Shown here piece after piece: positions 2,488-31,182 of a DNA stretch of 32,000 nt. Origin of the DNA: an uncultured Lentisphaeria bacterium (GTDB lineage Bacteria > Verrucomicrobiota > Lentisphaeria > JABSQK01 > JAJFLO01); contig OX638337.1 in the NCBI GenBank assembly GCA_951812855.1, positions 390,001-422,000 of the forward strand, given 5' to 3'. The notes beneath the pieces were generated by a model. That model saw only the letters and a list, made by a program, of their open reading frames with translations. It was not told where the DNA came from and searched no databases. The translations under genes and the position numbers were made by a program. The first letter of the stretch is position 1. Each line of letters begins with the position of its first letter.

Positions 2488-2598
2488 TATAGACCCTTCG
2501 GCACTCCGCAGCTGTCAGTTACTCGTTTTGCATTGCAAATTGTTTCTTTGAAACTTGGCTGTCTTGGCACACATTTGCATAGACGGGTTTGGTTAAAT

Positions 2599-3804
2599 TT
2601 AACAATTCAATATTAATTTCATCAGAGAATCACCAGTTAAATAACCAAGACTCCCGTGCTTTGCTTCGACTTCAGAAAAACAGCTGCACCTGTCCTTTTT
2701 GATATGATTTCCCAAAATCGCAAACGGCACTGGATCCCTGGTGTGAATTCGAAGTCTTACCGGGACAGGATGATCAGGCAAAACTGCATACGTAATATCT
2801 CGTTCTGCTAACTTCTCTCTAACTCTGCCAATCATACGTTTATCGATATCTTCGACAGCCTTTAACTTCAAATCAAGATCGCCAAGATGTGAACACTCAT
2901 CAACCGCCTCAACATGAAGGTAAACAAAATCATGGTCTTCCAGTGCCGCAACTGCAGCATCGGCTTTTCCTTCATAATTTGTGTCAACAAATCCTGTTGC
3001 ACCAGGAACCTTTATCATTTCAAGTCCAACACATTTTCCTAAACCGAAAATTACATCTACAGCACTGATAATTGCTCCTGAAATATTACCATATTTTTGT
3101 TTAAATGATGGTAGATTCGGCTTCTTCCCCGGACTCCATGGCCATATCATGTTTGCAGATTGAGACCGGGTTTTGTTAATCGGATGCTGCTCTAAAAACG
3201 GCCGTGTTTTATACATAAGATCATTAAGAAAGTCTGCGGTAAATTTGGCTTCTGGACTATTATCTGCGGGTTTGAGCAGCAGATCTTCAATCTTCTTTCC
3301 CTGTGACGCGTCCGGCTTTTCGTAGTTTAGATTTGTACTGAATTTATCACCATGCAGCATCAATATATTGCGATAGCTGACTCCGGAATAAAACGTAAAA
3401 TCATCACAGTTAAATTCCTCTCCAAGACCCTCTATCAAACATTTTGCATCAGCATTATTGATATGTCCACCGGAATAGCCCTCTAAAGTATCCCCGTCTG
3501 CATGGATCAAATTACACCGCCATGCACTATCCTCAGCGTTCATTTCAATGCCTTGACTAAATGCTTCCAACGGTCCTCGCCCGGTGTAGTGTTGTGCCGG
3601 ATCATATCCCAGTACCGACATATTCGCCACATCCGATGAAGTTGGATAGCCTTCAGGCAATGTTAAAAAAGTACCCGATGCACCTTCTGAAGCAATCCAA
3701 TCCATATTTGGAGTATCTGCATACTCCACCGGTGTTTTTCCGCCCAGTTCAGGCAAGGGATCGTCAGCCATTCCATCAGTTAATATCAATATTGTTTTAT
3801 TCAC
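2599..3804 (-). CDS. apgM: Cofactor-independent phosphoglycerate mutase, archaeal type (ApgM family)
   Basis: 401 aa. N-terminus ILILTDGMADDP..GGKTP..ADTPNMD, then SSDVANMSVLGYDP, FVYLHVEAVDECSHLGD and LPDHPVP. These are the alkaline-phosphatase-superfamily metal ligands in the ApgM arrangement. Confidence 0.88.
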   Translation of the reverse strand: MNKTILILTDGMADDPLPELGGKTPVEYADTPNMDWIASEGASGTFLTLPEGYPTSSDVANMSVLGYDPAQHYTGRGPLEAFSQGIEMNAEDSAWRCNLIHADGDTLEGYSGGHINNADAKCLIEGLGEEFNCDDFTFYSGVSYRNILMLHGDKFSTNLNYEKPDASQGKKIEDLLLKPADNSPEAKFTADFLNDLMYKTRPFLEQHPINKTRSQSANMIWPWSPGKKPNLPSFKQKYGNISGAIISAVDVIFGLGKCVGLEMIKVPGATGFVDTNYEGKADAAVAALEDHDFVYLHVEAVDECSHLGDLDLKLKAVEDIDKRMIGRVREKLAERDITYAVLPDHPVPVRLRIHTRDPVPFAILGNHIKKDRCSCFSEVEAKHGSLGYLTGDSLMKLILNC

Positions 3805-4195
3805 TATTGCATTCTTTATTGTTAGAATTACGACCGATTACTCCAGCCCGTTCCAAAATTACCTCTGCAATTTTTCTATGAACCCCCAGTGGTTCAGTAA
3901 CCCTGTATGATATTTCTGGATAGTTTGACGCACAGTCCGCTACCATTTCAGGGATATCACAGGTTGAATGCCGTCCGGGTGAAAGCATATAGGGATGGAC
4001 AATAATCTCTGTTGCACCCGCCTCTACACAGGCCCTGAATCCATCTGCAATCATCGGTCTGGCAAGCTCCATGTGTGCAATTTTTACAATTATCTCAGGC
4101 TGGAGGTCTCTTAAAACATCTGCAACATCTTCCAACATCAGATTCGCCGCATCTTTTTGGGATCCATGATCAATTATTAAAAGTGCTTTGGACAA
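3797..4195 (-). CDS. cbiX: Small CbiX/SirB-type sirohydrochlorin chelatase
   Basis: 132 aa: LLIIDHGS..., ...IIVHPYMLSPGRHS..., the class II chelatase CbiX(S) pattern. The start is TTG at 4195, with a stop 8 codons upstream and no ATG. Its 3' end overlaps the apgM start by 8 nt, so the two are probably co-transcribed. Confidence 0.72.
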   Translation of the reverse strand: MSKALLIIDHGSQKDAANLMLEDVADVLRDLQPEIIVKIAHMELARPMIADGFRACVEAGATEIIVHPYMLSPGRHSTCDIPEMVADCASNYPEISYRVTEPLGVHRKIAEVILERAGVIGRNSNNKECNSE

Positions 4196-4919
4196 TTCAG
4201 TACCTGAAACCAGAGATTAACGTAAAAGGAAAATTCAAATTAAAAATCAATAAGCGGAGTAAAATCGTGTCGAAATCACAAAGATTCAAATGAATATCAA
4301 TCGTGATCGGGAAAACTCTGCTTGAAATCCGACTTTTTATTCTCACTCAGGGCGATACCATGACAGGAAAAAATCCACTCTTAATCGTTAAATTGTTGAT
4401 TCTGGCTGATTATCTGAAGTTGATGCTTCTGAAAGCGTGCAGGTTGTGTCAATAAAATGGCTGGTCCAGTGAAGATAAACCGTATTGGGGATATGATTCT
4501 GCAGATAATTCTCACAGCGTAAAACTGGCGGGGATCCTCATTTCCCCCTGATATCAAAAATCTTTACCTGAAAATTTTCAAGCATGTTATAAAGAATAAC
4601 AGCTGATATGAGTGGTTTGTCATCTATTTGAAGAGCCTGTTGGTTTTTGATCAACACTATTCTGGTCAGTTTTTTTTTACACACTTGATTCTAAAAAGTC
4701 TCTGAAGGGAGTATACCTTCGACTCTCAAGTCATTGAAATTTAAGATTACATCTACATTTTATTGATATCGCTTTATTTACCAATTCGCAACCCGTTGCA
4801 TAACTCGTATAGAATATAACGAGCAAAGCCCCTTCATATATGAATGATTCAGCCGAGCACAGTCCATAGGTTTTAATCGGGTTCAAGATAATTTAAGTTG
4901 TCTTGAGCCTTTAATTATT

Positions 4920-7697
4920 ATGAGTAAACAAAAAAAAATAGTTGCTGAAATTGATTTTGATCATTCTCCGGATGATGTGACACTTCGTTTTTACCAGTCA
5001 ACGGATGATGGAAACATCATTTTAAGAATTCAGGAATTATTTAATATCGTTAAATCTATTCAGCGTGATGAATCAAATAATTGGCGTGATATAGATCAAC
5101 GTTTATTGCGACAGCTCTGGCCGCATATTAATAAGCCTTATATTATCAAATCCAACCTGCAAATATTGAAACTGTCAAAAGTGAAATTTAAAAATTTTCA
5201 TGAATCCTGGTCTGATTATCCGGAGCGATTCATCGAAAAAAATTCCCGGGCATTTTATGAATACAATGTACCTACGGCAAAAATCGAATTTGAGTTAGAA
5301 AGTTTAGGTGCAAAAAGTAAACTCTCAGCTAAGATTAAACTCGCTGACAACACGAGTTATGACTATTTCAAAGTAAAAAATTTTAAGGCAGGAACTGAAA
5401 CGTTAGTATCGATAAAGAATTTACTTTACCGAATTACAGAATTTCCAATAAAGAAAGAAATTTTAGATAGTGTCTTTGGAACCTCAATCCCTGTTATTCC
5501 TACATCAAAAATAGTTGAACATCTGCCATCCCTTTTACAAAACCGGTTTGATATATTAAGTGGGCCATCCGTTAATCATATTCAAAAACCAGTAAAACCT
5601 CACGTAAAACTTTGCGACGACGGTGCCGATATTATGATTTCAATTCAATTAAACGGCACTGAAATTGATCTGTCTAATACACATCTAATCAGTCACATTA
5701 AACTCATAAGAAACGGAAATGTTTTTGAGGTTGTGCACTACTCAAGTAAGAGTATGAAAAGCATGATAGACCAGTTGAAAAACCTCAATATTAAACATGC
5801 ATATGGAAAAAAATGGAAACTCGCCGGCACCACAGAAAACCTAAGCAGACTGTACAAAATTCATCAATCCTCGAAGGATAAAATGACCTGCGGAACAGCA
5901 CCAAATCTCAGGTCAATTTTTGAGGATGCAAGGGTATTTAATCCAGTCTTGTCGCTGCAGAGGAACGAGGGTTGGTTAGACATGTCAATTTCGTGCGAAA
6001 GTGATTCATTGGAAATTGATCAGGATCAATTTAATCATATCAAAAAATTTCAACCTGAATTCATTCGGACCGGGAATGGAAGCTGGATAAGAATTGATAA
6101 TAATTCCATTAATAATGTTGCACAGAAATTGGATAATTCAGGATTTGAGCTGGGCTATCAGCGAGTCCCGATTACCCTGTCCAAAAAAATCATTGACAGA
6201 GTTAATTGTGAACCGGATCTTAGAATTCAAAAGTCATCAAGAGATTTAATCAATGAATTAGTAATTTTGAACAAATTGCCCATCCCTAAAATGTCATCTG
6301 TACTGGCTGCAATATTACGGGAATATCAAAAATCCGGTGCAGAATTTTTATTTAATAGAAACCACTTTAAACTGGGATGCATTTTAGCTGACGAGATGGG
6401 CCTGGGTAAAACGATTCAGCTTCTTGCATACATTGATTGTATAATTAATCAAAATAAAAACAGCAAATTTTTAGTGGTATGCCCTTCCTCAGTAATCTCA
6501 GTATGGGTAAACGAATGTCATAAATTCACTCCAAATATCACGATACTCAATTCATCAGAGGTATCGCGGACAAATCGTAAAACCCTGATAAATAAATCTG
6601 AAAATTGGGATGTGTCGGTTACCTCATATGCACTGCTTCGAAATGATATAGACCAGCTTAAAAACAGACATTTTCACGCAATTATTCTTGATGAAGCCCA
6701 TTATATTAAAAATCCGGAAACTGAAATCTGCAGAGCGGTTAAAAAACTAAACTCGGATCACCGAATCGCTCTGACAGGAACGCCGCTTGAAAACAAATTA
6801 ATTGATCTATGGTCAATTATTGATTTTCTAAATCCCGGATTTCTGGGCAGTTTGAATGAGTTTAAATCATCTTATACAAATTCATTTATTCCTCCAGAGA
6901 TTTTTAAGCAAAGAATTTCGCCGTTAATATTGCGTCGGACGAAACGTGAAGTGGAAACGGAATTACCGGAGCGAACGGAAGAAATTATTTCAATGCCACT
7001 TTCTGCAATGCAGGCAAAATTATACAAAACAGAGCTGGAATCAATTAGAAAAAGCTTGAACAAAAATGGGATATTTGAAATTTTTGCAGGTTTAACACGA
7101 TTACGGCAAATATGTTGTGACGCAAGATTACTGAAAACATCAATGCAGCAATCAGACTCGGAAGACACTGCCGATTTTTCATATTCTGCTAAATTGGCCT
7201 GTCTTATTGATCGATTACTCGAGCTAAGAGAAACTAACCATTCTGTTCTGATATTCAGCCAGTTTACAAGTATGCTGGAGTTAATTGAAACCGAATTAAA
7301 TCGTCATAATTTCAATATATTCAAGATCACTGGGAAAACACCCGTAAAAAAGCGAACCGGATATGTCGAAGAATTTCAAGAATCGACGAACCCGTCAGTG
7401 TTTTTATTAAGTCTTAAAGCCGCATCAACCGGCTTAACGTTAACCAGAGCTGATTACGTATTTATATACGATCCCTGGTGGAATCCGGCTGTTGAGAATC
7501 AGGCGATTGACAGAACCCACAGAATTGGTCAGGACAAACCCGTCATTGCCTATCGACTCGTTGTTGAAAATACGATTGAAGAAAAGATAATTTTAATGCA
7601 AAACGAAAAGCGCAAATTATTCTCTGAGGTTATTGAAAACCAAACACACACCGCATCCAACTTATCAGCCGATGATTTAATCGAATTATTAAGCTAA
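4920..7697 (+). CDS. SNF2-family DNA-dependent ATPase (YwqA-like: about 450-aa uncharacterised N-terminal region plus C-terminal SNF2 core)
   Basis: 925 aa. All SNF2 motifs are intact: ADEMGLGKT (I), ILDEAHYIKN (II), LTGTPLEN (III), LSLKAASTGLTLT (V), WNPAVENQAIDRTHRIGQ (VI). I recognise no domain in the N-terminal half. Confidence 0.9.
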   Translation: MSKQKKIVAEIDFDHSPDDVTLRFYQSTDDGNIILRIQELFNIVKSIQRDESNNWRDIDQRLLRQLWPHINKPYIIKSNLQILKLSKVKFKNFHESWSDYPERFIEKNSRAFYEYNVPTAKIEFELESLGAKSKLSAKIKLADNTSYDYFKVKNFKAGTETLVSIKNLLYRITEFPIKKEILDSVFGTSIPVIPTSKIVEHLPSLLQNRFDILSGPSVNHIQKPVKPHVKLCDDGADIMISIQLNGTEIDLSNTHLISHIKLIRNGNVFEVVHYSSKSMKSMIDQLKNLNIKHAYGKKWKLAGTTENLSRLYKIHQSSKDKMTCGTAPNLRSIFEDARVFNPVLSLQRNEGWLDMSISCESDSLEIDQDQFNHIKKFQPEFIRTGNGSWIRIDNNSINNVAQKLDNSGFELGYQRVPITLSKKIIDRVNCEPDLRIQKSSRDLINELVILNKLPIPKMSSVLAAILREYQKSGAEFLFNRNHFKLGCILADEMGLGKTIQLLAYIDCIINQNKNSKFLVVCPSSVISVWVNECHKFTPNITILNSSEVSRTNRKTLINKSENWDVSVTSYALLRNDIDQLKNRHFHAIILDEAHYIKNPETEICRAVKKLNSDHRIALTGTPLENKLIDLWSIIDFLNPGFLGSLNEFKSSYTNSFIPPEIFKQRISPLILRRTKREVETELPERTEEIISMPLSAMQAKLYKTELESIRKSLNKNGIFEIFAGLTRLRQICCDARLLKTSMQQSDSEDTADFSYSAKLACLIDRLLELRETNHSVLIFSQFTSMLELIETELNRHNFNIFKITGKTPVKKRTGYVEEFQESTNPSVFLLSLKAASTGLTLTRADYVFIYDPWWNPAVENQAIDRTHRIGQDKPVIAYRLVVENTIEEKIILMQNEKRKLFSEVIENQTHTASNLSADDLIELLS

Positions 7698-15181: not shown

Positions 15182-15865
15182 TTGTGTATTGATGCAAAAA
15201 TTGAAATTAAAAATTTAGCAAGAGTTTATAATAATGTTACGACTGTTGCCGGAATCAACCTGACAGTTAGCAGTGGATCGATAACCGGCTTACCGAACCC
15301 CGATGGTGCAGATAAAACATCCACACTAAGAATGTTGGCAGGAATATTAAAACCGACATCTGGATCCATTAAAATATGTGGTTTTGACATGTTGACTGAG
15401 GTTATGAAAATCAAAAAAATCGTCGACTTTTTGTCTGCAGATACCCAGTTATATGGCCACTTACCGTAATCGGGACTCTTATTTTTGGGAAAGCTTCACC
15501 AGATGAATGATACCGTTTTAAAGACTCGGGTTGATCATATTATTCAGGAGATGGACATGGCGAATTTTGTTTATGGGCAAATAAAGACTCTTTCATCGGG
15601 TCAAGCACAGAAAACGAATATTGCCAGAGCAATTCTCCATGATCCTGATGTGTTGATTCTGGATGAGGCAACGGTTTCACTGGACATAATCAGCAGCCCG
15701 TTTATCATCGAATCACTTCGTGAGTTAAAATCCAAAGGTAAAACGATTTTATTTTCTACACATATTATGAGTGAGGCAGAATATCTATGTGATCAAATTG
15801 CATTTATTCATATGGGGAAAATTTTTGATAAAGGAACGACTGCTGACCAAACAAAAAACGATTAG
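15182..15865 (+). pseudogene. ABC-transporter ATP-binding protein, inactivated (in-frame TAA at 15470-15472, degenerate Walker A)
   Basis: ORFs 15182-15469 and 15485-15865 are in the same frame (offset 303 nt) and separated by one TAA. Walker A reads GLPNPDGADKTST, against the consensus G.GPNGAGKTT. The signature LSSGQAQK and Walker B VLILDEAT remain. No permease gene follows. Confidence 0.8.
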
Positions 15866-23082: not shown

Positions 23083-23202
23083 GAGACGTGTTTATGCAGG
23101 GTGGGATTTTTGTTTAATAAATTTTGACATTATATTACTGAAGTAACTACGCCGCATAAGAAGTGGTGCCCTGAATGTGCAGCGTATCGCCACACAGGTC
23201 AA

Positions 23203-23691
23203 AACCAAACCGGTTTTAGGGATGGCATCTATGGTGCCGGAAGTTGGAAACCGAAACGACGCTTGATTATCAAGGCAGAATATCGTCATAAAGGAGTCCG
23301 CCCGCGTTTTCTGATTACCCGTTTCAGCGGTGAACCTGAAAGTCTGTATCGTATTGCCTACTGTGCCCGGGGCACTATAGAGAATCGTATCAGAGAACAA
23401 CAGCCTGACTTGTTTGAAACACACACCCGTTGTCATCATTGGCGGGCAAATCAATTTCGATTCATACCGGCCGCATGTGCCAATATATTGCTCCGGAAAA
23501 TGTGCACTGTTGCGTTGGCTGGAACTGAATCGGCACGGGCCGCCTGTGATTCAATTTGATTAAGACTGTTAAAAACTGGAGGTGTGGTTACCTGGAATAT
23601 CCGGCGACTATACTTTCATTTATCATCACATTATCCATATCAGAAATTATTCCGGACAGTTGGACAGCGTCCGGCTTTCAATACCGGTTAA
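23203..23691 (+). mobile_element. IS1380-family transposase, 3' remnant (5'-truncated, one in-frame TGA)
   Basis: ..GIYGAGSWKPKRRLIIKAEYRHKGVRPRFLITRFSGEPESLYRIAYCARGTIENRIREQQPDLFETHTRCHHWRANQFRFIPAACANILL...CDSI*LRLLKTGGVVTWNIRRLYFHLSSHYPYQKLF. This follows the IS1380 C-terminal pattern (Y..RG..EN.IKE.K...., AN.., I.LKLLKI.A.V....R.....S.YPY...F). The TGA at 23557-23559 sits where family members usually have R. The first ~270 aa are missing. Confidence 0.7.
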
Positions 23692-23704
23692 TTGTAAATC
23701 AATA

Positions 23705-23870
23705 TATATATAGCATTTGAAAAATTCGATTTAACCCAGGTAGATTTGCCTATAGCTCCAGTACCAAATAGAAAAAGCTCTTACCAGAAGAATATTGTAT
23801 TATTCTGGGATACATAACTCCAAATTATATCGAAAAATAGAGTTTTTAACTCCAAACACAGAAATATCTA
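23705..23870 (-). pseudogene. Possible N-terminal fragment of a P-loop ATPase
   Basis: The reverse strand reads ..ELFLFGTGAIGKSTWVKSNFSNAIYI.. (Walker-A-like G.G..GKST, revcomp of 23739-23765), preceded after a stop by ..NSIFRYNLELCIPE.. in another frame. It ends where the IS1380 remnant ends. Very fragmentary. Confidence 0.3.
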
Positions 23871-23949
23871 CGGCGAAAATCATATTCCCGACCAATTTTT
23901 ATCCGGCATCACAGAATCTAATTATTTCGAACATCTTTTACATTCCTCT

Positions 23950-24150
23950 TTAACACAACAATGAACAACTGACTTTAGGGGCATATTGATGAACATCCCT
24001 ATCCCATACATAGTCAGTTTCTGTTCTGCTAATCATGTCAATGTACCCAACTTCCTTATAATGCCGCTGCTGATACTGGTTAAACCAGGAAAAAATATCA
24101 GATGGAGAATCTCTTCGCCGAATCCATGAAGCTGGTATATTGACATAAAT
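23950..24150 (-). pseudogene. Orphan coding remnant (about 70 open codons, no start); candidate displaced 3' part of the GT-C gene at 30242-30910
   Basis: The reverse frame is open from the repeat at 24151 to the stop at 23950-23952: ..YVNIPASWIRRRDSPSDIFSWFNQYQQRHYKEVGYIDMISRTETDYVWDRDVHQYAPKVSCSLLC*. About 70 stop-free codons is unlikely by chance in DNA this AT-rich. Identity unknown. Confidence 0.3.
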
Positions 24151-24181
24151 TAAGGGAATTATATACTTATACTTAAATAAG
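24151..24181. repeat. Copy A of island repeat (left inverted repeat): TAAGGGAATTATATACTTATACTTAAATAAG
   Basis: Inverted partner at 30241-30266. The shared exact 16-mer GGGAATTATATACTTA is at 24154-24169. It is flanked outside by AAAT (24147-24150). With the upstream TTGACA (24140-24145) it forms TTGACA-N16-TATACT (24162-24167), a near-consensus sigma70-like promoter reading rightward. Confidence 0.8.
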
Positions 24182-24227
24182 TAAAATCACTCATTTTATC
24201 TTTAACCTCAACGGTTTAAATATCCTC

Positions 24228-24255
24228 TTTACAACCCAAAACTGACTGGTATAAT
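24228..24255 (+). promoter_or_regulatory. Sigma70-like promoter TTTACA-N16-TATAAT upstream of the IS1595 transposase relic
   Basis: TTTACA at 24228-24233 and TATAAT at 24250-24255, about 40 nt upstream of ATG 24297. Sequence match only. Confidence 0.4.
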
Positions 24256-24296
24256 AATAAGCATATTGCATTCAATTACTTATCCAATCATAAATT

Positions 24297-25217
24297 ATGA
24301 ATATCAGAAAAACAGCAGATACAATCAGTATTACAAATTTATTTAAACTATTTTCAACAGAGCATTAAGGTTATTAAATGGCTAGAAAAAATCAGATGGA
24401 ACAACAAACCTATATGCGGGTTCTGTGGCACTCAAACGGGTATAAAGAGCTTACCATCACATAAACACAGTTAGTTGGTGTAAAGAATGTAGAAAGATAT
24501 TTACAGTAAGAACAAACACATTTATGCACGCTAGTAAAATACCAGTGACTAAATGGGTTATAGCCCTATATCTTATTATTACAGCCCGCAAAGGTATATC
24601 TAGTTTACAGTTAAGCAAAGAACTAGGCATAACCCAGAAATCAGCCTGGTTTATGTGCCAACGTATAAGAGAAGAAATGCAAAACGAAGATATGCTAGCT
24701 GGTATCGTGGAAATTGACGAAGCATATTTTGGTGGCAAAGAATCCAACAACATCAACACCAAAAAACTCAAAGCTGGCAGAGGCACAATAGGCAAATATG
24801 CCGTTATAGGTATGCGAGAACGTGGCGGTAATACCAAGGCGATAACTGTCAATAATACCGATATAAATACACTGCAAAATTGTATAACTGATAATGTAAT
24901 AGCAAGAAGTACCATTTATACGGATGATCATAGAAGTTACATAGGATTAGAAAGCCATAATGAATATAAACACGGTGTTGTAAAACACAATGTCTCAGAA
25001 TATGTAAACGGTATGGTGCATACCAACAGTATAGAATCAATGTGGGCGGTATTAAAACGAAGTTATCATGGAATACATCATCACATTTCAGGAAAGCATT
25101 TACATCGTTATGTAAACAAATTTAGCTACAGACTTTAAGGTAAAGCTAATTGCCAATGCGATACTGTGCAAAAACATGGACAACACCCGATTATCGTATC
25201 AGGATTTGACGCGATAA
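24297..25217 (+). mobile_element. IS1595-family (ISXO2-like DDE) transposase gene, pseudogenised by at least 3 frame disruptions
   Basis: Four pieces in three different frames. (1) MNIRKTADTISITNLFKLFSTEH* (24297-24368). (2) ..QSIKVIKWLEKIRWNNKPICGFCGTQTGIKSLPSHKHS*. (3) ..SWCKECRKIFTVRTNTFMHASKIPVTKWVIALYLI...DEAYFGG...IYTDDHRSY...HNVSEYVNGMVHTNSIESMWAVLKR...HLHRYVNKFSYRL* (track ORF 24524-25138). (4) KVKLIANAILCKNMDNTRLSYQDLTR* (to 25217). Together they rebuild the N-terminal zinc ribbon plus ISXO2-like DDE domain architecture. Confidence 0.85.
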
Positions 25218-25240
25218 ATAAGGGAATTAGTTCTTAAAAT
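25206..25240. repeat. Copy B of island repeat (degenerate internal end) between the transposase stop and the mod start
   Basis: TTGACGCGATAAATAAGGGAATTA (25206-25229) matches TTGACATAAATTAAGGGAATTA (24140-24161) in direct orientation, with 21 matched nt and two indels. AATTAGTTCTTAAAAT (25225-25240) resembles AATTCCCCTTAAAAT (30256-30270). Confidence 0.5.
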
Positions 25241-25242
25241 AA

Positions 25243-27342
25243 ATGACTTTTAAAAATATGAATATGAAATTATCCGAATACGAAATACAAGATTTAATCG
25301 AAAGATTGCAGAAGGGAGAGAACATTCCTCAAGACTATAAATACAAACTTTTTCCAACGAAACAAAAGGAATACGAGTTGGTGTATGGCGGTAAAATGAG
25401 AAAGGAAGATATTTTAGCCAATGAAGACGGGGTTTTCCCCGTTCCTTTACAGGTAGAAAAAACATTCAATGGACAGCGTGAATCTTGGAAAGATGGCTGG
25501 AAAAATATAATTGCTTTCGGAGATAACCTTCAATTTCTAAAAACAATCTATGAGAATAAAGACCCTTTAATAAAAGATAAAGTAAAGGGTAAGGTTAAAC
25601 TTATCTATATTGATCCACCTTTTGCAACTGCCGATGAATTTCAAAACAAGCAAGGTGCGAAAGCCTACAATGATAAAAAGAAAGGGGCTGAATTTGTAGA
25701 GTTTTTAAGAAAAAGATTAGTTGTTGCAAGGGAAATATTAGCTGATGATGGAAGTATTTATATTCATCTTGATCAGAAAATGGGACACTATATAAAAGTT
25801 TTAATGGATGAAATTTTTGGAAAAAACAACTTTATCTCAGAAATAATATGGAAACGAACTGGTGCAAGAGCGCAATCTAATTTTATCAATCCAGTACATG
25901 ACTTAATATATTTTTATTCTAAGGATATAAATAGGGTTAAATGGATTTCTTATAGAATACCATATTCTCAAGAATACATAGATAAATATTATCGCCACAC
26001 AGATAAAGACGGTAGAAAATTTCAAGATACTTCTTTGATTGCGCCAGGTAAGGGCTATCAGTTTGAATGGAAAGAGGTAACGAAGGGCTGGAGGCATAAT
26101 AAAGAGAAATTTGAAAAACTAGAGAATGAAGATCGTATTTATTATACAAAAGCAGGGGTTGCAAGATATAAGCGTTATCTAGATGAAATGGAGGGAATTC
26201 CGCCTCAAGATATTTGGTCTGATATATCAAATGTTAATTCACAAAGTGGCGAAAGATTGGATTATCCGACTCAAAAGCCAGAAGAATTGATTGAGAGAAT
26301 TATTAAAGCAAGTTCAAATGAAGGTGACATTGTTTTAGATTTTTTTGGAGGTTCCGGCACAACTGTAACAGCAGCAGAAAAACTAAATCGGAAATGGATT
26401 TCTTGTGATATTGGTAAGCTGTCATTCTATACAATTCAGAAGCGAATATTAAATATTGAGACAAGCAAATCTCTTGAGAATCCAAAAAAGAAACACGGCA
26501 AAAACGCAAAGAGTTTTCTAACAATAAACACGGGTCAATATGATCTTGAGAAGGTGTTTGATCTTAAACATAAAGATTATTCAGATTTTGTACTAAGACT
26601 TTTTGAAATTGAGCCAATCAAAAAAACAATTAGCGGGATAAAAATAGATGGGGAACGCAAAGATGGATATTACGCATTAATTTGGCGTTACTGGGAACAC
26701 AAAGACACATCTGTAGATGAAGTGTACTTAGATAGCCTTCATTCGAACATAGGTAAGAAAGTGGGCGATAGAATTTACATTGTTGCTCCCGCAAATTATG
26801 TAAATTTTATCAGTGACTATTATGAGATTGACAATGTCCGATACTACTTCCTAAAGGTGCCTTATCATATTATCAAAGAACTACATAAAATTCAGTTCAA
26901 GAAATTTAGACAACCACAAAGTAAAAAAAATGTCAATGATTTGGAAGATGCAGTTGGATTTCATTTTATGAAACAACCTGATCTTATAACTGAATTATCA
27001 ACCTCTAAAACAAAAGTAAAAATAAGTATTAAAAAATTCCATTCTGATTTCAGTGAAGATGAAAAAGGTAAAGAATTAGAAAACTTTGAAAGTTTGGCAA
27101 TGGTATTAATTGATAAAAGTTTTAATGGTCAAGCCTTTGATATGGATGAATATTACTTTGCAGAAGATCTACTGCCAAAGAAAAAGGGTACAAAAGATGA
27201 TGGAAATGTTGGCGAAGAATTGAAAGAAACTAAAGAGATTAATTTACCAGCAATTCCAAGAAAAGAGTGCGGGAAAGCCTTAATGATAATCTATGTTGAT
27301 GTTTTCGGAAATGAATTTAAAGAGAAGTTTGAAATTAAATAA
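25243..27342 (+). CDS. mod: Type III R-M methyltransferase subunit (Mod), beta-class N6-adenine/N4-cytosine MTase
   Basis: 699 aa. Motif IV is IYIDPPFAT (DPPF = aa 124-127, nt 25612-25623). Motif X/I is YPTQKPEELIERII...GDIVLDFFGGSGTTVTAAEKLNRKWISCDI (aa ~341-390). The order IV...X-I is the beta permutation used by Type III Mod. About 310 aa follow motif I. Mod lies upstream of a helicase-nuclease Res. Confidence 0.88.
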   Translation: MTFKNMNMKLSEYEIQDLIERLQKGENIPQDYKYKLFPTKQKEYELVYGGKMRKEDILANEDGVFPVPLQVEKTFNGQRESWKDGWKNIIAFGDNLQFLKTIYENKDPLIKDKVKGKVKLIYIDPPFATADEFQNKQGAKAYNDKKKGAEFVEFLRKRLVVAREILADDGSIYIHLDQKMGHYIKVLMDEIFGKNNFISEIIWKRTGARAQSNFINPVHDLIYFYSKDINRVKWISYRIPYSQEYIDKYYRHTDKDGRKFQDTSLIAPGKGYQFEWKEVTKGWRHNKEKFEKLENEDRIYYTKAGVARYKRYLDEMEGIPPQDIWSDISNVNSQSGERLDYPTQKPEELIERIIKASSNEGDIVLDFFGGSGTTVTAAEKLNRKWISCDIGKLSFYTIQKRILNIETSKSLENPKKKHGKNAKSFLTINTGQYDLEKVFDLKHKDYSDFVLRLFEIEPIKKTISGIKIDGERKDGYYALIWRYWEHKDTSVDEVYLDSLHSNIGKKVGDRIYIVAPANYVNFISDYYEIDNVRYYFLKVPYHIIKELHKIQFKKFRQPQSKKNVNDLEDAVGFHFMKQPDLITELSTSKTKVKISIKKFHSDFSEDEKGKELENFESLAMVLIDKSFNGQAFDMDEYYFAEDLLPKKKGTKDDGNVGEELKETKEINLPAIPRKECGKALMIIYVDVFGNEFKEKFEIK

Positions 27343-27343
27343 T

Positions 27344-29929
27344 ATGGAAGAGATAAAACGTTATAAAACATCTGACCTTGTCTTAAAGGTTGACAAAAAC
27401 TATGACCCGACTAAACTTCCGCTACAGCACTGGGATAGATATATTGATATTTTAGTAAGTAACAGACAATATCAAAAAGAAGCAATTATTAACACAGTAA
27501 TATTTTTAGCTTCTGGTTTATATAAAAATACACGTGATTTGGTAGAAAAAAATTGGAATGATAATTCAAATGTGGAATTGAAAAAAAGGTATTCCGATTT
27601 AGATGAATACTTAAATTACCTACAAATTTCATCCAAACTTTCGGCAACAATTGACCTTGCCACAGGAACAGGGAAAAGTTATGTGATATACGGCATTGCT
27701 CAAATTATGCTTGGGTTAGGCTTAGTTGATAGAGTTTTAGTTTTGTGCCCTTCACTAACAATTGAAGGTGGATTAACCGAAAAATTTTTAAATCTAAGTT
27801 CAGATAGCAAATTAGTAGACGCTATCCCTGAGAATGCAAAGTGGAGAAACCCCTCAATAAAATCATCTGATGTAACTATTAAAGAGGGTGATATCTGTAT
27901 TGAGAATATTCATGCTGTCTATGAAACTACCGGTTCATCAATTAAAGATAGTTTTAAAAATAACGGTGAAAAAACCTTGGTACTCAATGACGAAGCACAC
28001 CATATCTACAATAGAGTTGAAGGCAGAGGTAAAGAGACTCAGAATCTAAAGAAATGGAAAGAATTTCTGATAAATTCCGACTTCAATTTTAAATATATCG
28101 CTGGTTTTACAGGTACAGCATATATCGACGATGAATATTTTAATGATGTGATTTATCGTTACTCCTTACGGCAGGCTGTTGACGATCAAATGGTCAAAAT
28201 GGTCGACTATATTAGTAAAGACGACGACCTTGATAAGAATATAAAATTCCAAAAAATTTATGACAATCATGACTATAACAAGCTAAATTATCGCAAAATA
28301 AAACCTCTAACAATTCTAATTACAAAAGACATTAAAAATGCTAAAAGATTACTTACTGAAGTCTCTGATTTTCTAATATCGCGGGAGAGTTTAAGTGAGG
28401 ATGAAGTAAAAGAAAAAACTTTGATTGTTACCTCACACAGCGACCATAAAGCAAATGTTCAGAAATTAAAGGAAGTTGATAATAAAGATAATCCAATAGA
28501 ATGGATAATTTCCGTTTCAATGCTTACAGAAGGTTGGGATGTTAAAAATGTCTTTCAAATTGTGCCTTGGGAAGACAGAGCATTTAATTCAAAATTATTA
28601 ATTGCACAGGTTTTAGGGCGTGGCTTACGAATACCGATTGAATATCAAAGCCCGCAACCAAAAGTAAGAATTTTTAACCACGATGCTTGGAGCAGAAATA
28701 TAAAAGGACTTGTTGATGAAATACTTGAAATTGAAAAGCGACTTATTTCTATTCCTTTAGGAACAGGATATAGGGTACGACATCATTTCAAAGTCCATCA
28801 CATAGACTATACTAAAAAAGCTATCATTAAGAAATCTAGTAAAGAGCATATAGAATTTGACTACACAAAAGGATATATAGAACTTCAATCACAAGTAGAA
28901 AAAAGCGAAAGGGAAACTGAATATACAGATTTTGCAGGGACTATAAATTTAAAAGAAACACTTATCCATTACAACACCTACACTATAGAGGAAGTTGTAA
29001 ATAAAATTATAGATGAACTCAAAGTAAGAGACTGGGAAGGGAAAATAATTAAACTTCCAACTGGTAGTTATTCTAAAGACAAGATTCCACCAAAGGAAGA
29101 GATAACTAAAATTATTCGCACATCAATGGATAGAGTCGGTATCAAAGGAGATAGATTAATCGAAAAAAATAAGAATAAAATATTAAACAGTTTCAATACA
29201 CTTCTTAGAAAAACTAATAAAAGCGTATTTTATGAAAGAGAAGTTCGAGAGTTACAGACAATACATACAAAGGACATGAAACAAGAGAGTGTAGCACTCG
29301 GTAATTTAAGACAGAATGCAACGGTCTATTATTCATCTGAATACAAAACTGAAATTGATGAGAAAAATTTAGAGTTATTAAATATTGTAATCAAAGATGA
29401 AAGTTTGCCAAGAAGTGCGTCAAAAGAAATAGGGAAGTTTCTTTTTAAAACACCTTTGAACTTAATTTTTTCTACAGCACAGCCTGAACGCGAGTTCATC
29501 AAGGAACTTTGTGAAAAAAATAACGCAGAGAAAATTGCAAGTTGGCTGAAGTCAAGAGATATGAATTTTTATTCAATAGAATACTCAATTACCTCTATCG
29601 GCGGAAAACACTCAAAAATTCAATCTTTCAACCCTGATTTTTTTATAAAACTAATAGATGGTAAAATTACACATTTCTTAATTGTTGAAATTAAATCTGA
29701 TGAAGATATAAGTGAAGAAAATAAGGCAAAACTAAAATATGGGACACAACATTTTAAGGACTTGAATAAGGAATTGAAAAAACAGAACGTTGACGAAAAA
29801 TATCATTTTCATTTTTTAAGCCCTAACTCGTATGACGTATTTTTTGACCATTTGAGAAACGGAAAACTGATTGAAGATAAATTTAAAAGTGATTTAGAAG
29901 TCGAATTATTAGCAAAGACTAACGAATAA
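27344..29929 (+). CDS. res: Type III R-M restriction subunit (Res): SF2 helicase-like ATPase plus C-terminal PD-(D/E)xK nuclease
   Basis: The track ORF starts at 27293, inside mod. ATG 27344 (MEEIKRYK...), one nt after the mod TAA, is the plausible start (861 aa). Motifs: YQKEAI (Q), DLATGTGKSYV (I), VLNDEAHHI (II), GFTGTA (III), SVSMLTEGWDVKNV (V), AQVLGRGLRIP (VI). C-terminal FNPDFF...FLIVEIKSD gives PD...(E)xK. Confidence 0.87.
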   Translation: MEEIKRYKTSDLVLKVDKNYDPTKLPLQHWDRYIDILVSNRQYQKEAIINTVIFLASGLYKNTRDLVEKNWNDNSNVELKKRYSDLDEYLNYLQISSKLSATIDLATGTGKSYVIYGIAQIMLGLGLVDRVLVLCPSLTIEGGLTEKFLNLSSDSKLVDAIPENAKWRNPSIKSSDVTIKEGDICIENIHAVYETTGSSIKDSFKNNGEKTLVLNDEAHHIYNRVEGRGKETQNLKKWKEFLINSDFNFKYIAGFTGTAYIDDEYFNDVIYRYSLRQAVDDQMVKMVDYISKDDDLDKNIKFQKIYDNHDYNKLNYRKIKPLTILITKDIKNAKRLLTEVSDFLISRESLSEDEVKEKTLIVTSHSDHKANVQKLKEVDNKDNPIEWIISVSMLTEGWDVKNVFQIVPWEDRAFNSKLLIAQVLGRGLRIPIEYQSPQPKVRIFNHDAWSRNIKGLVDEILEIEKRLISIPLGTGYRVRHHFKVHHIDYTKKAIIKKSSKEHIEFDYTKGYIELQSQVEKSERETEYTDFAGTINLKETLIHYNTYTIEEVVNKIIDELKVRDWEGKIIKLPTGSYSKDKIPPKEEITKIIRTSMDRVGIKGDRLIEKNKNKILNSFNTLLRKTNKSVFYEREVRELQTIHTKDMKQESVALGNLRQNATVYYSSEYKTEIDEKNLELLNIVIKDESLPRSASKEIGKFLFKTPLNLIFSTAQPEREFIKELCEKNNAEKIASWLKSRDMNFYSIEYSITSIGGKHSKIQSFNPDFFIKLIDGKITHFLIVEIKSDEDISEENKAKLKYGTQHFKDLNKELKKQNVDEKYHFHFLSPNSYDVFFDHLRNGKLIEDKFKSDLEVELLAKTNE

Positions 29930-29952
29930 TATTCGACCCCAAAGGCATATAC

Positions 29953-29994
29953 ATTTGCAATTTACAAATTGCAAACCGATTGGCAGTAAATGCC
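29953..29994 (+). repeat. Two adjacent hairpins just after res: TTTGCAATTT-AC-AAATTGCAAA and TGGCA-GTAAA-TGCCA
   Basis: Perfect 10-bp arms at 29953-29962 / 29965-29974, then 5-bp arms at 29980-29994. No T-run follows, so this is not a textbook intrinsic terminator. Confidence 0.5.
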
Positions 29995-30039
29995 AGTAAA
30001 GTTTCTATTGGAAAGAAACTTGATGTATAGCATTAAATA

Positions 30040-30201
30040 ATGATGAAAAATAACAGAAAAGATATAACGATGGAACAATTTAAGACTGTTGTGGGTAAGT
30101 TAATGCAAACAGGAAAACCGACTATAAAATCAGAGAATAAGAAACCTACAAGAAAAGAATTGGAAGAAAGAATTTACCATAACGTTAATTATAAGTGCTA
30201 A
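30040..30201 (+). CDS. Small ORF (53 aa), unknown, inside the repeat-bounded element
   Basis: MMKNNRKDITMEQFKTVVGKLMQTGKPTIKSENKKPTRKELEERIYHNVNYKC*. It is below the track's size cut-off. Lys-rich, no SD seen. It may not be real. Confidence 0.2.
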   Translation: MMKNNRKDITMEQFKTVVGKLMQTGKPTIKSENKKPTRKELEERIYHNVNYKC

Positions 30202-30240
30202 GTAAAACCATAAAAAAATTCATAAGAATTTATAGAATTC

Positions 30241-30266
30241 CTTATTTAAGTATATAATTCCCCTTA
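30241..30266. repeat. Copy C of island repeat (right inverted repeat); revcomp = TAAGGGGAATTATATACTTAAATAAG
   Basis: Inverted relative to 24151-24181. The exact 16-mer is at 30247-30262. It is flanked outside by AAAT (30267-30270). It supplies the last 7-8 codons and the stop codon of the truncated GT-C ORF. Confidence 0.8.
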
Positions 30267-30910
30267 AAATGGTCTGCTCCCTCGGCGGGTGTTAAAAGCC
30301 CTACATATTCACGAGCATGGATAAATGTCCAATAAATGAAATTCTTGAAATTTCCTGACAGAATAAATATTAAGCAGGTGGTTAAATAAGGAAGGGATAC
30401 CCCAATGATAAATATAAGCATACGTATTATTAATTTTTTCCACCGCCGGGTGTTTATCATTATGTCATAAAACATGATTCCGAGTCCGGCAATCACAAAC
30501 GTAAAATCATGTTGTTTTATTAACACGGCACATCCAAGTAATATACCCGCTGTCAGGCAGAAATAATTTTTCTCTTGATTCAGTGATATCAGAAGACACC
30601 AGATTGCACTCAGCACAAACGGTATCATAAAATGTTCTGTATTGGCAAAAATACCCTGTACTGAACTGCTTAAATTATGAATCATGTAAAACCCGGCTGC
30701 GATGACAGCTGAAATTGAACTGGATAACACACGTCCGGCAATCAGAAATATAAGAATAATACTGATAGAATTTGCAATGAGCAAACCGGTATGGATGGCT
30801 GAAATTGAATGACCGAATACAGATAAAGCAGCACCATAAATCACATAAATTCCGGGTAGTTTCATACTGTAAAAATCTTTGTAAGGAACGAATCCCTGAA
30901 GAAGTAGGAT
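30242..30910 (-). pseudogene. GT-C fold glycosyltransferase (ArnT/PMT, GT39/83-like) fragment, truncated at both ends
   Basis: Track ORF 30242-30865 (207 aa, about 7 TM segments). The frame is open upstream to 30910 and reads ..GFVPYKDFYSMKLPGIYVIYG, the loop-1 motif (PY.D...KPP) that normally follows TM1, but TAA TAA at 30911-30916 removes the N-terminus. The 3' end runs into repeat copy C. Full-length relatives are about 450-550 aa. Confidence 0.68.
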
Positions 30911-31182
30911 TTATTAACACAAATATTTAAGAATATTGTTTTAATCAGTGTAATTTCAAAACGGTGGAATATCACCTCAATTTACAGGTATATAATTCAT
31001 GTCCTGTATAGTATAAAACAATATGGAGCTTACTATATCAGGAAATTAGTTTTTTAATCTTATTTACTGTCAATTTAAACAATTTCCGAATATCAAATCC
31101 TCTGCTTAACTCAGCGTTTGAACTGAAGTAAATTTCAACAACCTCCTGAATTCGGATAAAATTTAAACAAATGTGATTTATT

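What the first reader, a model, noticed from the sequence alone, without database searches (positions are those of the whole stretch)
24147..30270. Type III R-M plus IS1595-family relic enclosed by ~30-bp inverted repeats: candidate passenger-carrying IS
Seen in sequence: 24151-24181 (TAAGGGAATTATATACTTATACTTAAATAAG) recurs inverted at 30241-30266 (revcomp TAAGGGGAATTATATACTTAAATAAG). The exact core is the 16-mer GGGAATTATATACTTA. It extends on both sides with one 1-nt indel and one 6-nt indel; the 6-nt indel is a local TTATAC duplication. Both copies read the same way from outside to inside, as terminal inverted repeats do. Both are abutted outside by AAAT. The 6.1 kb between them contains exactly a frameshifted IS1595-family transposase, mod, res and a 53-codon ORF. 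Established knowledge: the IS1595 family includes subgroups that carry passenger genes between their ends. Inference: the whole R-M system is, or was, cargo of an IS1595-derived transporter IS that transposase decay has now immobilised. An R-M system mobilised as IS cargo would be an unusual vehicle for defence-gene spread. An alternative reading is that the repeats are scars of IS-mediated rearrangement or inversion.
Basis: partly seen in the sequence, partly recalled or inferred. Interest (0 to 1): 0.72.

Follow-up and report, generated by a model that had tools for sequence, protein, structure and literature searches.

The report
Dead IS1595 transposon carrying Type III R-M
A 6.1-kb stretch bounded by genuine insertion-sequence ends holds a dead IS1595-family transposase gene and an intact Type III restriction-modification operon, so a phage-defence system sits here as cargo of a now-immobile transposon, a known kind of vehicle that turns out to be common in this IS clade.

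Summary
The repeats at 24154-24181 and 30241-30262 are true IS termini. The same tip, GGGAATTATATAC, ends dozens of IS1595-family elements elsewhere, most with perfect 8-bp target duplications. Between the tips lie four things:
- a transposase pseudogene with 3 frameshifts and 1 nonsense codon;
- a 4.74-kb cargo holding intact mod and res;
- the clade's conserved small ORF;
- the right inverted repeat (IRR).

The cargo begins 10 nt after the tnp stop, the slot where relatives carry their cargo. It is about 80% nt-identical to radC-mod-res cassettes of other phyla, none of which has IS ends.

A sister strain (99.7-99.9% identical flanks) lacks the element, and its GT-C sequence runs uninterrupted across the right junction. 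The flanking TAA/AAAT is target sequence, not IR or duplication. There is no target duplication, because about 610 bp of the already decayed GT-C gene is missing between the two tips. The insertion was therefore followed by an adjacent deletion or by recombination between copies.

Relatives with intact transposases carry Type II R-M cargo with perfect duplications. Together with published IS1595 transporter ISs and TIR-bounded R-M units, this makes the element a new member of a known kind. Movement of this particular 6.1-kb unit is not shown.

The parts
24154..24181 (+). Left terminal inverted repeat (IRL): GGGAATTATATACTTATACTTAAATAAG, 22-nt IR plus a 6-nt TTATAC tandem duplication
   Evidence: The tip is identical to the IS termini in L003-L010, in viral loci and in metagenome loci. 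GT-C homology ends at 24153.
24297..25217 (+). IS1595-family transposase pseudogene (Zn-ribbon + DDE_Tnp_IS1595). It has frameshifts near 24362, 24470 and 25170 and a nonsense codon at 25136-25138. The longest ORF is 24524-25138.
   Evidence: NF033547 scores 192 bits (cutoff 75). PF12762 E 4e-37. tblastn with P0003/P0004 splits into 4 frames. Two of the three frameshifts and the nonsense codon lie outside homopolymer runs; the third (near 25170) is at an A5 run.
25214..25229 (+). Unexplained direct-orientation copy of the left junction (ATAAATAAGGGAATTA), sitting exactly at the transposase/cargo junction
   Evidence: 1 of 300 simulated windows gives such a match. It is not an IS end in either orientation.
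25227..29967 (+). Cargo segment, 4741 bp: the last ~30 nt of a radC gene, mod, res and ~40 nt downstream. It is 78-80% nt-identical to radC-mod-res cassettes from other phyla.
   Evidence: blastn to L035-L037. GC is 30-32%, against 34-43% in the flanks.
25243..27342 (+). mod: Type III methyltransferase subunit (N6_N4_Mtase; DPPF and FGGSGTT motifs). Intact. The start is at 25243 or 25258.
   Evidence: PF01555 E 4e-49. Its length matches homologues of 645-700 aa. The variable TRD 25865-26250 does not align to relatives.
27344..29929 (+). res: Type III restriction subunit (ResIII/SF2 helicase + C-terminal PD-ExK-like nuclease). Intact, 861 aa from the ATG right after the mod stop. The longest ORF starts at 27293.
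   Evidence: PF04851, PF18766, and weak PF19778/PF08722. Homologues are 62-83% identical and 856-869 aa long.
30040..30201 (+). Conserved small ORF of this IS subclade (53 codons), next to the right end
   Evidence: hhalign against the small ORFs at the right ends of L003, L009 and L010: probability 90%, E 1.7e-6. It is unrelated to the ORF downstream of res in radC-mod-res cassettes.
30241..30262 (-). Right terminal inverted repeat (IRR): GGGAATTATATACTTAAATAAG
   Evidence: Identity to the sister strain resumes at 30263/30264.
30263..30865 (-). N-terminal part of the interrupted GT-C (PMT_2) glycosyltransferase pseudogene (target, right flank)
   Evidence: PF13231. It continues as ...DHFKGFFGDIW... 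in the sister strain P0248/L048 and in L011. Stop codons upstream of the ATG are present in both strains.
23950..24153 (-). C-terminal part of the same GT-C pseudogene (target, left flank). About 610 bp of the gene is missing between the two flanks.
   Evidence: L011 2214-2470 aligns to window 24160-23903, and L011 960-1604 aligns to 30906-30261.

Best explanation
Window 24154-30262 (6109 bp) is a decayed transporter IS (tIS) of the IS1595 family. It belongs to a clade whose ends read GGGAATTATATAC.

Architecture: IRL, transposase, cargo slot, small conserved ORF, IRR.

Cargo: the slot, which opens within 10 nt of the transposase stop codon, holds a 4.74-kb Type III R-M operon (mod-res). The operon was captured from a widespread radC-mod-res cassette and still carries the last ~30 nt of radC.

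Insertion (inferred): while its transposase, or a related one acting in trans, was active, the element landed in an AT-rich site of an already decaying GT-C glycosyltransferase gene. This happened after, or around, the split from a sister strain that lacks it.

Later events (inferred): either an IS-adjacent deletion, or recombination with a second copy inserted about 610 bp away, removed about 610 bp of target together with the 8-bp duplication.

Decay (shown): the transposase gene then accumulated three frameshifts and a nonsense codon, and IRL gained a 6-nt duplication. The element can no longer move on its own. The intact mod and res presumably still work as a defence system and possibly an addiction module.

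Shown: ends, gene content, cargo boundaries, junctions, transposase decay, absence in the sister strain.
Inferred: that the 6.1 kb arrived as one unit, the order of events, and R-M activity.
For: (1) Termini. The same GGGAATTATATAC tip bounds many independent elements:
- six identical 1608-bp copies in one metagenome;
- L009, 2043 bp, TSD ATATGATT, and L010, 2487 bp, TSD GTTTATTT;
- paired ends in five viral loci;
- 30 of 80 metagenome loci fetched with the transposase profile, 1176-3632 bp long, most with perfect 8-bp TSDs.

(2) Right-end module. Window orf53 is homologous to the small ORF adjacent to IRR in L003, L009 and L010.

(3) Cargo slot. In L003, L009, L010 and L129 the foreign genes start at or within a few nt of the tnp stop, as they do here.

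(4) R-M cargo moves in this clade.
- L010 carries N6_N4 MTase-HNH, L071 a C5 MTase plus an unassigned 188-aa ORF (no Pfam match), and L093 C5 MTase + HNH + Vsr. All three have perfect TSDs.
- L065 carries an S subunit plus a Type IIG-like RM gene, with a 7/8 TSD.
- L061 and L063 carry a C5 MTase plus, respectively, an unassigned 247-aa ORF and an HNH nuclease.

(5) Junctions. Homology to GT-C ends exactly at both tips. The sister strain L048 reads through the right junction and differs from the window in the 1.7-kb right flank only at 30263.

(6) Cargo origin. Window 25227-29967 is 78-80% nt-identical to mod-res loci of a Campylobacteraceae MAG, an Opitutaceae MAG and an unnamed MAG. Fifteen related loci lack the IS tip, and radC-mod-res gene order is documented in eleven of them.

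(7) Transposase decay.

(8) Foreign composition of the insert.
Against: - There is no target-site duplication (TAAATTAA vs CTTAAAAT), and the two tips abut GT-C positions about 610 bp apart. A simple one-step insertion is therefore excluded and an extra event must be assumed.
- No second copy of this particular tIS, and no transposase closer than 59% identity, was found among 5.8 billion proteins. Unit mobility of this cargo combination is therefore unproven.
- All close mod-res relatives examined lie outside ISs.
- The direct-orientation junction-like sequence at 25214-25229 is unexplained and could point to a more complex history.
- R-M activity is untested.
Confidence: 0.8

Rival explanations
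1. In-situ capture. A plain IS of this clade (IRL-tnp-small ORF-IRR) inserted into GT-C first. The mod-res segment later recombined into its cargo slot in this chromosome, so the 6.1-kb unit never transposed as such.
For: No other copy of this tIS with this cargo was found. Close mod-res relatives all sit in radC-mod-res cassettes without IS ends. The odd junction-like sequence lies exactly at the tnp/cargo boundary.
Against: No mechanism is known that would insert a 4.7-kb segment precisely between the tnp stop and the small ORF. The same slot is filled in many relatives that do carry their cargo between IRs flanked by perfect TSDs, so capture normally precedes transposition in this clade. 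The sister strain has neither the IS nor the R-M.
Confidence: 0.12
2. Two-copy (composite) origin. Two copies of the IS flanked an R-M island, or inserted about 610 bp apart in GT-C. Internal deletions or recombination between copies left one IRL-tnp and one orf53-IRR around mod-res.
For: There is no TSD, and the tips abut target positions about 610 bp apart. This is the classical signature of recombination between two IS copies. Exchanged flanks are seen among the L005/L008 copies of a related IS.
Against: If mod-res had lain between two complete copies, two independent precise deletions would be needed to recreate the standard clade architecture, with cargo starting 10 nt after the tnp stop. 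No inner IR remnants exist apart from the 8-nt GGGAATTA at 25222, which is in the wrong orientation for an IRR. Recombination between two cargo-bearing copies inserted about 610 bp apart remains compatible with the main explanation and is included in it.
Confidence: 0.07
3. The inverted repeat is a chance match in AT-rich DNA, and the transposase relic and the R-M genes are merely neighbours.
For: In an AT-rich window, short matches are frequent. With up to 3 mismatches the 16-mer is expected 0.73 times by chance.
Against: The two copies are exact over 16 nt and 22 nt in register. They sit exactly at the borders of the insert relative to GT-C homologues. They are identical to the termini of dozens of related ISs.
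Confidence: 0.01

Closest known systems
IS1595-family transporter ISs (tIS), e.g. tISCpe8 (lnuP) and MTnSag1/tISSag10 (lnuC); concept from Siguier, Gagnevin & Chandler 2009 as cited in PMC3129680, PMC9330008 and PMC5704250
   Same: An IS1595-type DDE transposase plus non-transposition passenger genes sits between ~25-bp terminal inverted repeats. Relatives show 8-bp target duplication and a preference for AT-rich targets (PMC5704250).
   Different: The cargo here is a 4.7-kb two-gene Type III R-M operon, not a single ~0.5-kb resistance gene. At 6.1 kb the element is larger than any complete element measured here (at most 3.6 kb). The transposase is dead and the TSD is lost. There is also a conserved small ORF next to IRR.
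ISNwi1 / ISNwi1+ subgroup of the IS1595 family (ISfinder classification; ends 'ggnnatTAT', with passenger-carrying members). Recalled from memory and not verifiable with the tools.
   Same: The tip GGGAATTAT fits the remembered consensus ggnnatTAT. Sizes of 1.2 kb without cargo and 1.5-3.6 kb with cargo fit the remembered ranges.
   Different: Subgroup membership was not tested against curated entries. No named ISfinder element could be compared.
TIR-bounded 'transposon-like' R-M units with 8-bp duplications (Furuta, Abe & Kobayashi 2010, PMC2853133), especially the N. gonorrhoeae unit with 26-bp IRs, a Type IIG RM gene, an S subunit and a transposase-motif ORF
   Same: R-M genes lie between short inverted repeats together with a (decayed) transposase-like gene. 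L065 in my census has the same cargo type (S subunit + Type IIG-like RM) inside this IS clade.
   Different: That paper did not assign the units to an IS family and did not report Type III cargo in such a unit with a recognisable transposase. The window element lacks the TSD.
radC-mod-res Type III R-M cassettes in defence islands
   Same: mod and res are 78-83% identical (nt/aa) to these cassettes. The window even keeps the 3' tail of radC.
   Different: In the window radC is replaced by the IS transposase, and the operon is enclosed by IS ends.

Membership tests
IS1595 family insertion sequence | DDE transposase of the ISXO2/IS1595 type with an N-terminal zinc ribbon | tested here: met
   NF033547 scores 192 bits (cutoff 75). 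PF12762 E 4e-37. The CxxC...CxxC N-terminus is recovered across frameshifts and aligns to P0003/P0004. The gene is a pseudogene.
IS1595 family insertion sequence | Short terminal inverted repeats (about 12-32 bp) at both ends | tested here: met
   A 22-nt IR is present. The tip is identical to the ends of related elements that have intact transposases.
IS1595 family insertion sequence | 8-bp target-site duplication | tested here: not met
   The flanks are TAAATTAA and CTTAAAAT, and about 610 bp of target is missing between the junctions. The feature is met in relatives, so its absence here reflects a secondary rearrangement.
ISNwi1(+) subgroup | Characteristic end sequence ggnnatTAT and transposase phylogeny within the subgroup | not testable with these tools
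   GGGAATTAT fits the consensus I recall, but no ISfinder data or paper carrying the table was accessible.
Transporter IS (tIS) | Passenger genes unrelated to transposition located between the IS ends together with the transposase | tested here: met
   mod and res lie between the tnp stop (25217) and the IS's own small ORF and IRR.
Transporter IS (tIS) | Evidence that IS plus passenger moved as one unit (TSD around the whole unit, or several copies) | tested here: not met
   There is no TSD and only a single copy. No close relative of this tnp or this unit exists elsewhere. The criterion is met for clade relatives carrying other R-M cargo: L010, L071 and L093.
Type III restriction-modification system | Adjacent mod (N6/N4 methyltransferase with TRD) and res (SF2 helicase + C-terminal nuclease) genes in mod-res order | tested here: met
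   PF01555 for mod. PF04851/PF18766 plus weak nuclease-domain hits for res. Both are full length relative to homologues that sources annotate as 'type III restriction enzyme'.
Type III restriction-modification system | Methylation and ATP-dependent restriction activity | not testable with these tools
   This needs a methylome or enzymology. Only ORF integrity and motifs (DPPF, FGGSGTT, DEAH, PD...EIK) were seen.

The most novel reading that the evidence does not exclude
The window's relic is one member of a widespread, previously uncharacterised clade of IS1595-family elements, recognisable by the GGGAATTATATAC tip. The clade acts as a recurrent shuttle for DNA methyltransferases and complete R-M systems (Type II, IIG-like and, here, Type III). 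Cargo sits in a fixed slot right after the transposase gene, often fused to or followed by a small basic IS-encoded ORF. Such elements would be a general, compact route for spreading R-M and anti-restriction genes across phyla and into phage genomes.
Probability: 0.45. Interest if true: 0.6.

Novelty: new member of a known kind. Interest (0 to 1): 0.4.

Why it matters
How R-M systems move between genomes is only partly understood. Here a complete Type III system sits inside a bona fide IS. The same IS clade carries Type II R-M systems with intact transposases and perfect target duplications. Simple ISs, and not only plasmids, phages or islands, can therefore ferry defence systems. The intact relatives (L010, L071, L093) give experimentally tractable candidates. 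For this genome the element is a strain-specific defence acquisition. It has become fixed through transposase decay, and it marks a decaying region with a GT-C pseudogene and an IS1380 relic.

Tried and rejected
- AAAT or TTAA as a target duplication: rejected, because both are native GT-C sequence and the flanks are non-contiguous.
- Search for an intact close copy of the transposase: none above 59% identity.
- Genome-collection scan with Res: only 3 loci, none with IS ends. The source genome itself is not in that collection.
- Plasmid searches: the IS DNA gave no match, and Res gave no hit of 60% identity or more (best 47.8%).
- Window-specific IR variant (…CTTAAATAAG): not among the 23 viral hits.
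- The sequence at 25214-25229 as an internal IS end: wrong orientation for an IRR, only 8 nt of IR, and partly made of radC tail. It is left unexplained.
- Homology between the window-type small ORF and the basic '..VLAYRPKPK..' ORF of the wider clade: not significant.
- L130 as a second large R-M-carrying example: an IRL and an intact tnp lie next to a ResIII helicase and an N6_N4 MTase, but no IRR occurs within 9 kb.
- Organism name: the sources give none.
- Papers with the ISNwi1 end-sequence table or the original IS1595 paper: not held.
- Phase-variable repeats in mod: none.
- Promoter and terminator scans: not above background.
Full report
**Observation**

The 16-mer GGGAATTATATACTTA occurs exactly twice in the 32-kb window. 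One copy is at 24154-24169 (+) and the other at 30247-30262 (-). No further copy appears even with up to three mismatches.

The left copy carries a 6-nt TTATAC tandem duplication. Once this is removed, the two arms share 22 nt, GGGAATTATATACTTAAATAAG.

Between the arms lie four features:
- an IS1595-family transposase relic (NF033547 192 bits, PF12762 E 4e-37);
- a mod gene (PF01555 E 4e-49);
- a res gene (PF04851, PF18766, weak nuclease domains);
- a 53-codon ORF.

**Are these real IS ends?**

Yes. The nearest intact transposases are only 52-59% identical, but the DNA around them shows the same tip.
- P0015 sits in six identical 1608-bp copies. They are bounded by GGGAATTATATACCTAAATCTGCAAA and GGGAATTATATACTTGAATCTGCAAA, and 8-bp duplications are present where flanks have not been exchanged.
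- P0003 sits in a 2043-bp element that splits a type I hsdR gene. Its ends read GGGAATTATATACTTAAATCCGC and its duplication is ATATGATT.
- P0004 sits in a 2487-bp element with the duplication GTTTATTT.

A pattern scan of viral contigs gave 23 loci with this tip, five of them with paired ends. A transposase-profile scan of metagenome contigs gave 80 loci. Of these, 30 had both ends, spanning 1176-3632 bp, and most had perfect 8-bp duplications.

The IS tip is therefore the GGG at 24154 and 30262. From memory, GGGAATTAT fits the ISNwi1-group end consensus (ggnnatTAT) of ISfinder. I could not verify this.

**Architecture**

The transposase gene (24297-25217) is dead. tblastn with P0003 and P0004 splits it over four frame segments, with frameshifts near 24362, 24470 and 25170 and a nonsense codon at 25136. 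Two of the three frameshifts and the nonsense codon lie outside homopolymer runs; the third, near 25170, is at an A5 run.

The 53-codon ORF next to IRR is homologous to the small ORFs in the same position in L003, L009 and L010 (hhalign probability 90%, E 1.7e-6). It is unrelated to the ORF that follows res in ordinary cassettes. The right 220 bp is therefore IS-derived.

In L003, L009, L010 and L129, foreign genes begin at or within a few nucleotides of the tnp stop. In the window the foreign segment begins 10 nt after it.

**The cargo**

Window 25227-29967 is 78-80% nt-identical to mod-res loci in three MAGs: a Campylobacteraceae MAG, an Opitutaceae MAG and one unnamed MAG. Res has hundreds of homologues at 62-82% identity across many phyla, including archaea and CPR bacteria.

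In eleven of the loci examined (L037-L047) the gene order is radC-mod-res. None of the fifteen related loci contains the IS tip. The window retains the last ~30 nt of radC upstream of mod, and homology ends ~40 nt after the res stop.

mod and res are full length. The real res start is probably 27344, giving 861 aa like its homologues. GC drops to 30-32% in the insert.

It identifies the donor of the cargo rather than refuting cargo status.

**Junctions and empty site**

The GT-C (PMT_2) gene on the minus strand is the target. A related contig, L011, carries a homologous gene at 71-74% nt identity.
- L011 960-1604 aligns to window 30906-30261.
- L011 2214-2470 aligns to window 24160-23903.

The two IS tips therefore abut GT-C sequence exactly, but about 610 bp of the gene is missing between them.

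A cluster look-up revealed a sister genome, L048, from a 1.94-Mb contig of ENA ERZ18545485. Its flanks are 99.7-99.9% identical to the window. In place of window 24049-30260 it has 514 bp of GT-C sequence. It reads straight through the right junction (…CATTTTAAAGGATTTTTTGG…), and the 1.7-kb right flank differs only at 30263.

L048 has its own ~200-bp deletion covering the left-junction region. Neither allele is therefore ancestral. In both strains GT-C is already a pseudogene, and an IS1380 transposase relic lies next to it.

The flanking TAA and AAAT are native GT-C sequence. The 8-mers next to the tips (TAAATTAA and CTTAAAAT) do not match. The element is thus a strain-specific insertion whose simple-insertion signature was erased. 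The cause was either an IS-adjacent deletion or recombination with a second copy inserted about 610 bp away. The native sequence at the left junction in L011 (AAAATTCC|TAATTTATG) resembles the IS tip, so a microhomology-mediated deletion is conceivable. This is inference.

**Does this clade move R-M systems?**

Yes. Among the complete elements, these carry methyltransferase-based cargo:

| Locus | Cargo | Target duplication |
|---|---|---|
| L010 | N6_N4 MTase fused to or followed by HNH | perfect |
| L071 | C5 MTase + unassigned 188-aa ORF (no Pfam match) | perfect |
| L093 | C5 MTase + HNH + Vsr | perfect |
| L065 | S-subunit-like gene + HSDR_N/N6_Mtase (Type IIG-like) | 7/8 |
| L061 | C5 MTase + unassigned 247-aa ORF (no Pfam match) | none |
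| L063 | C5 MTase + HNH nuclease | none |

The closest intact relative, L129, has an N6_N4 MTase directly after tnp. L003 keeps an MTase remnant (IYADPP*).

Other cargo includes a Lar restriction-alleviation gene on a viral contig, a HIT protein, a P63C protein and unknowns. Eight of the 30 complete metagenome elements are minimal (about 1.2-1.35 kb), and 22 exceed 1.5 kb.

**Comparison with the literature**

Transporter ISs were defined with the IS1595 family (Siguier et al. 2009, as cited in PMC3129680 and PMC9330008). Characterised examples are tISCpe8 and MTnSag1, which have 25-bp IRs, 8-bp duplications and AT-rich targets (PMC5704250).

Furuta et al. 2010 (PMC2853133) described R-M genes between inverted repeats with 8-bp duplications. 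One was a Neisseria unit with a Type IIG gene, an S subunit and a decayed transposase-motif ORF. The same paper cites the IS1595 paper among reports of R-M systems and solitary M genes flanked by IS elements.

R-M as IS1595-type cargo therefore has precedent. The window adds a Type III system and the largest such unit seen in this analysis, but in a dead, rearranged state.

**Verdict**

It is a new member of a known kind. Confidence is about 0.8 that this is a tIS-derived structure with R-M cargo.

Whether this particular 6.1-kb unit transposed as a whole is not shown. In-situ capture (about 0.12) and a two-copy origin (about 0.07) remain possible.

Unexplained: a direct-orientation copy of the left junction (ATAAATAAGGGAATTA, 25214-25229) sits exactly at the tnp/cargo boundary. 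Only 1 of 300 simulated windows gives such a match.

Noticed in passing
window 25214-25229: ATAAATAAGGGAATTA repeats the left junction (9 nt of GT-C flank plus the first 8 nt of IRL, 24145-24161) with one deletion. It is in direct orientation and lies exactly where transposase-derived sequence meets the radC tail of the cargo. Chance is about 1 in 300 simulated windows. No mechanism was found.
   Followed up: partly
window 23263-23559 (+), within 23092-23950: A C-terminal fragment of an IS1380-family transposase (NF033539, PF13701) lies in a non-coding, decayed stretch between the ICMT/PEMT-like gene and the GT-C tail. It is present in the sister strain too.
   Followed up: partly
window 30263-30930 and 23950-24153 (-); L048 9869-10382 (rc): The GT-C (PMT_2) gene is a pseudogene in both strains, with stops upstream of the MKLPGIY start. 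The sister strain has an independent ~200-bp deletion between two GGGTACAT (…GYI…) repeats, so neither allele is ancestral.
   Followed up: yes
L035-L047 (radC-mod-res loci); window 25227-29967: A Type III mod-res cassette, preceded by radC in eleven of the related loci, is ~80% nt-identical between Campylobacteraceae, Opitutaceae and this genome. Res homologues at 62-82% aa identity are labelled by their sources as Bacteroidetes, CPR, Methanoperedenaceae, Desulfobulbaceae and Bacillota. Many sit on ~5-6-kb contigs. This implies very active horizontal transfer by an unidentified vehicle.
   Followed up: partly
L071 1083-, L093 9906-, L061 3464-, L063 1313-, L065 9909-; small ORFs in L099, L113, L116-L118, L125: In the wider clade a ~40-aa basic ORF (..PPELDxIADxVLAYRPKPK..) follows tnp. 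In cargo-bearing elements its N-terminal ~25 aa are fused in frame to the first cargo gene (four different C5 MTases and an S-subunit-like gene). This suggests cargo integration inside this ORF. Its function is unknown.
   Followed up: partly
L017 6230-6544; L012 7107-8583 with inner 7127-7602: Transposase-less derivatives share the same tips. One is a 315-bp MITE-like element. Another is a 1.5-kb element carrying only a DHH/DHHA1-like gene, with a nested MITE-like insert.
   Followed up: no
L019 12888-14809 (IMG/VR contig): An element of this clade on a viral contig carries a Lar restriction-alleviation gene (PF14354) upstream of the transposase. This is anti-restriction cargo in the same IS clade that carries R-M systems.
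   Followed up: partly
L130 7870-16933: An IRL (GGGAATTATATACTTAAATCCGTGAA) and an intact transposase (P0009, 59% id) are followed by a ResIII-type helicase (798 aa) and an N6_N4 MTase (619 aa). No IRR was found within 9 kb. This may be a second large R-M-linked case or a one-ended relic. A second element (2074-5922, TSD ATTTTTAA, 3.85 kb) lies nearby.
   Followed up: partly
L121 8925-10929: This related element has the perfect target duplication TAAATTAA, the same 8-mer that abuts the window's IRL. This is consistent with a shared AT-rich (TTAA-containing) target preference, or it is a coincidence.
   Followed up: no
window 27293-27343: The longest res ORF overlaps mod by 50 nt. Homologues indicate the true start is the ATG at 27344, one base after the mod stop (861 aa).
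   Followed up: yes
window 15707-15735 vs L048: There is a small structural difference (about 28 bp of overlapping alignment blocks) between the two strains upstream of the DUF481 gene. It is unrelated to the finding.
   Followed up: no
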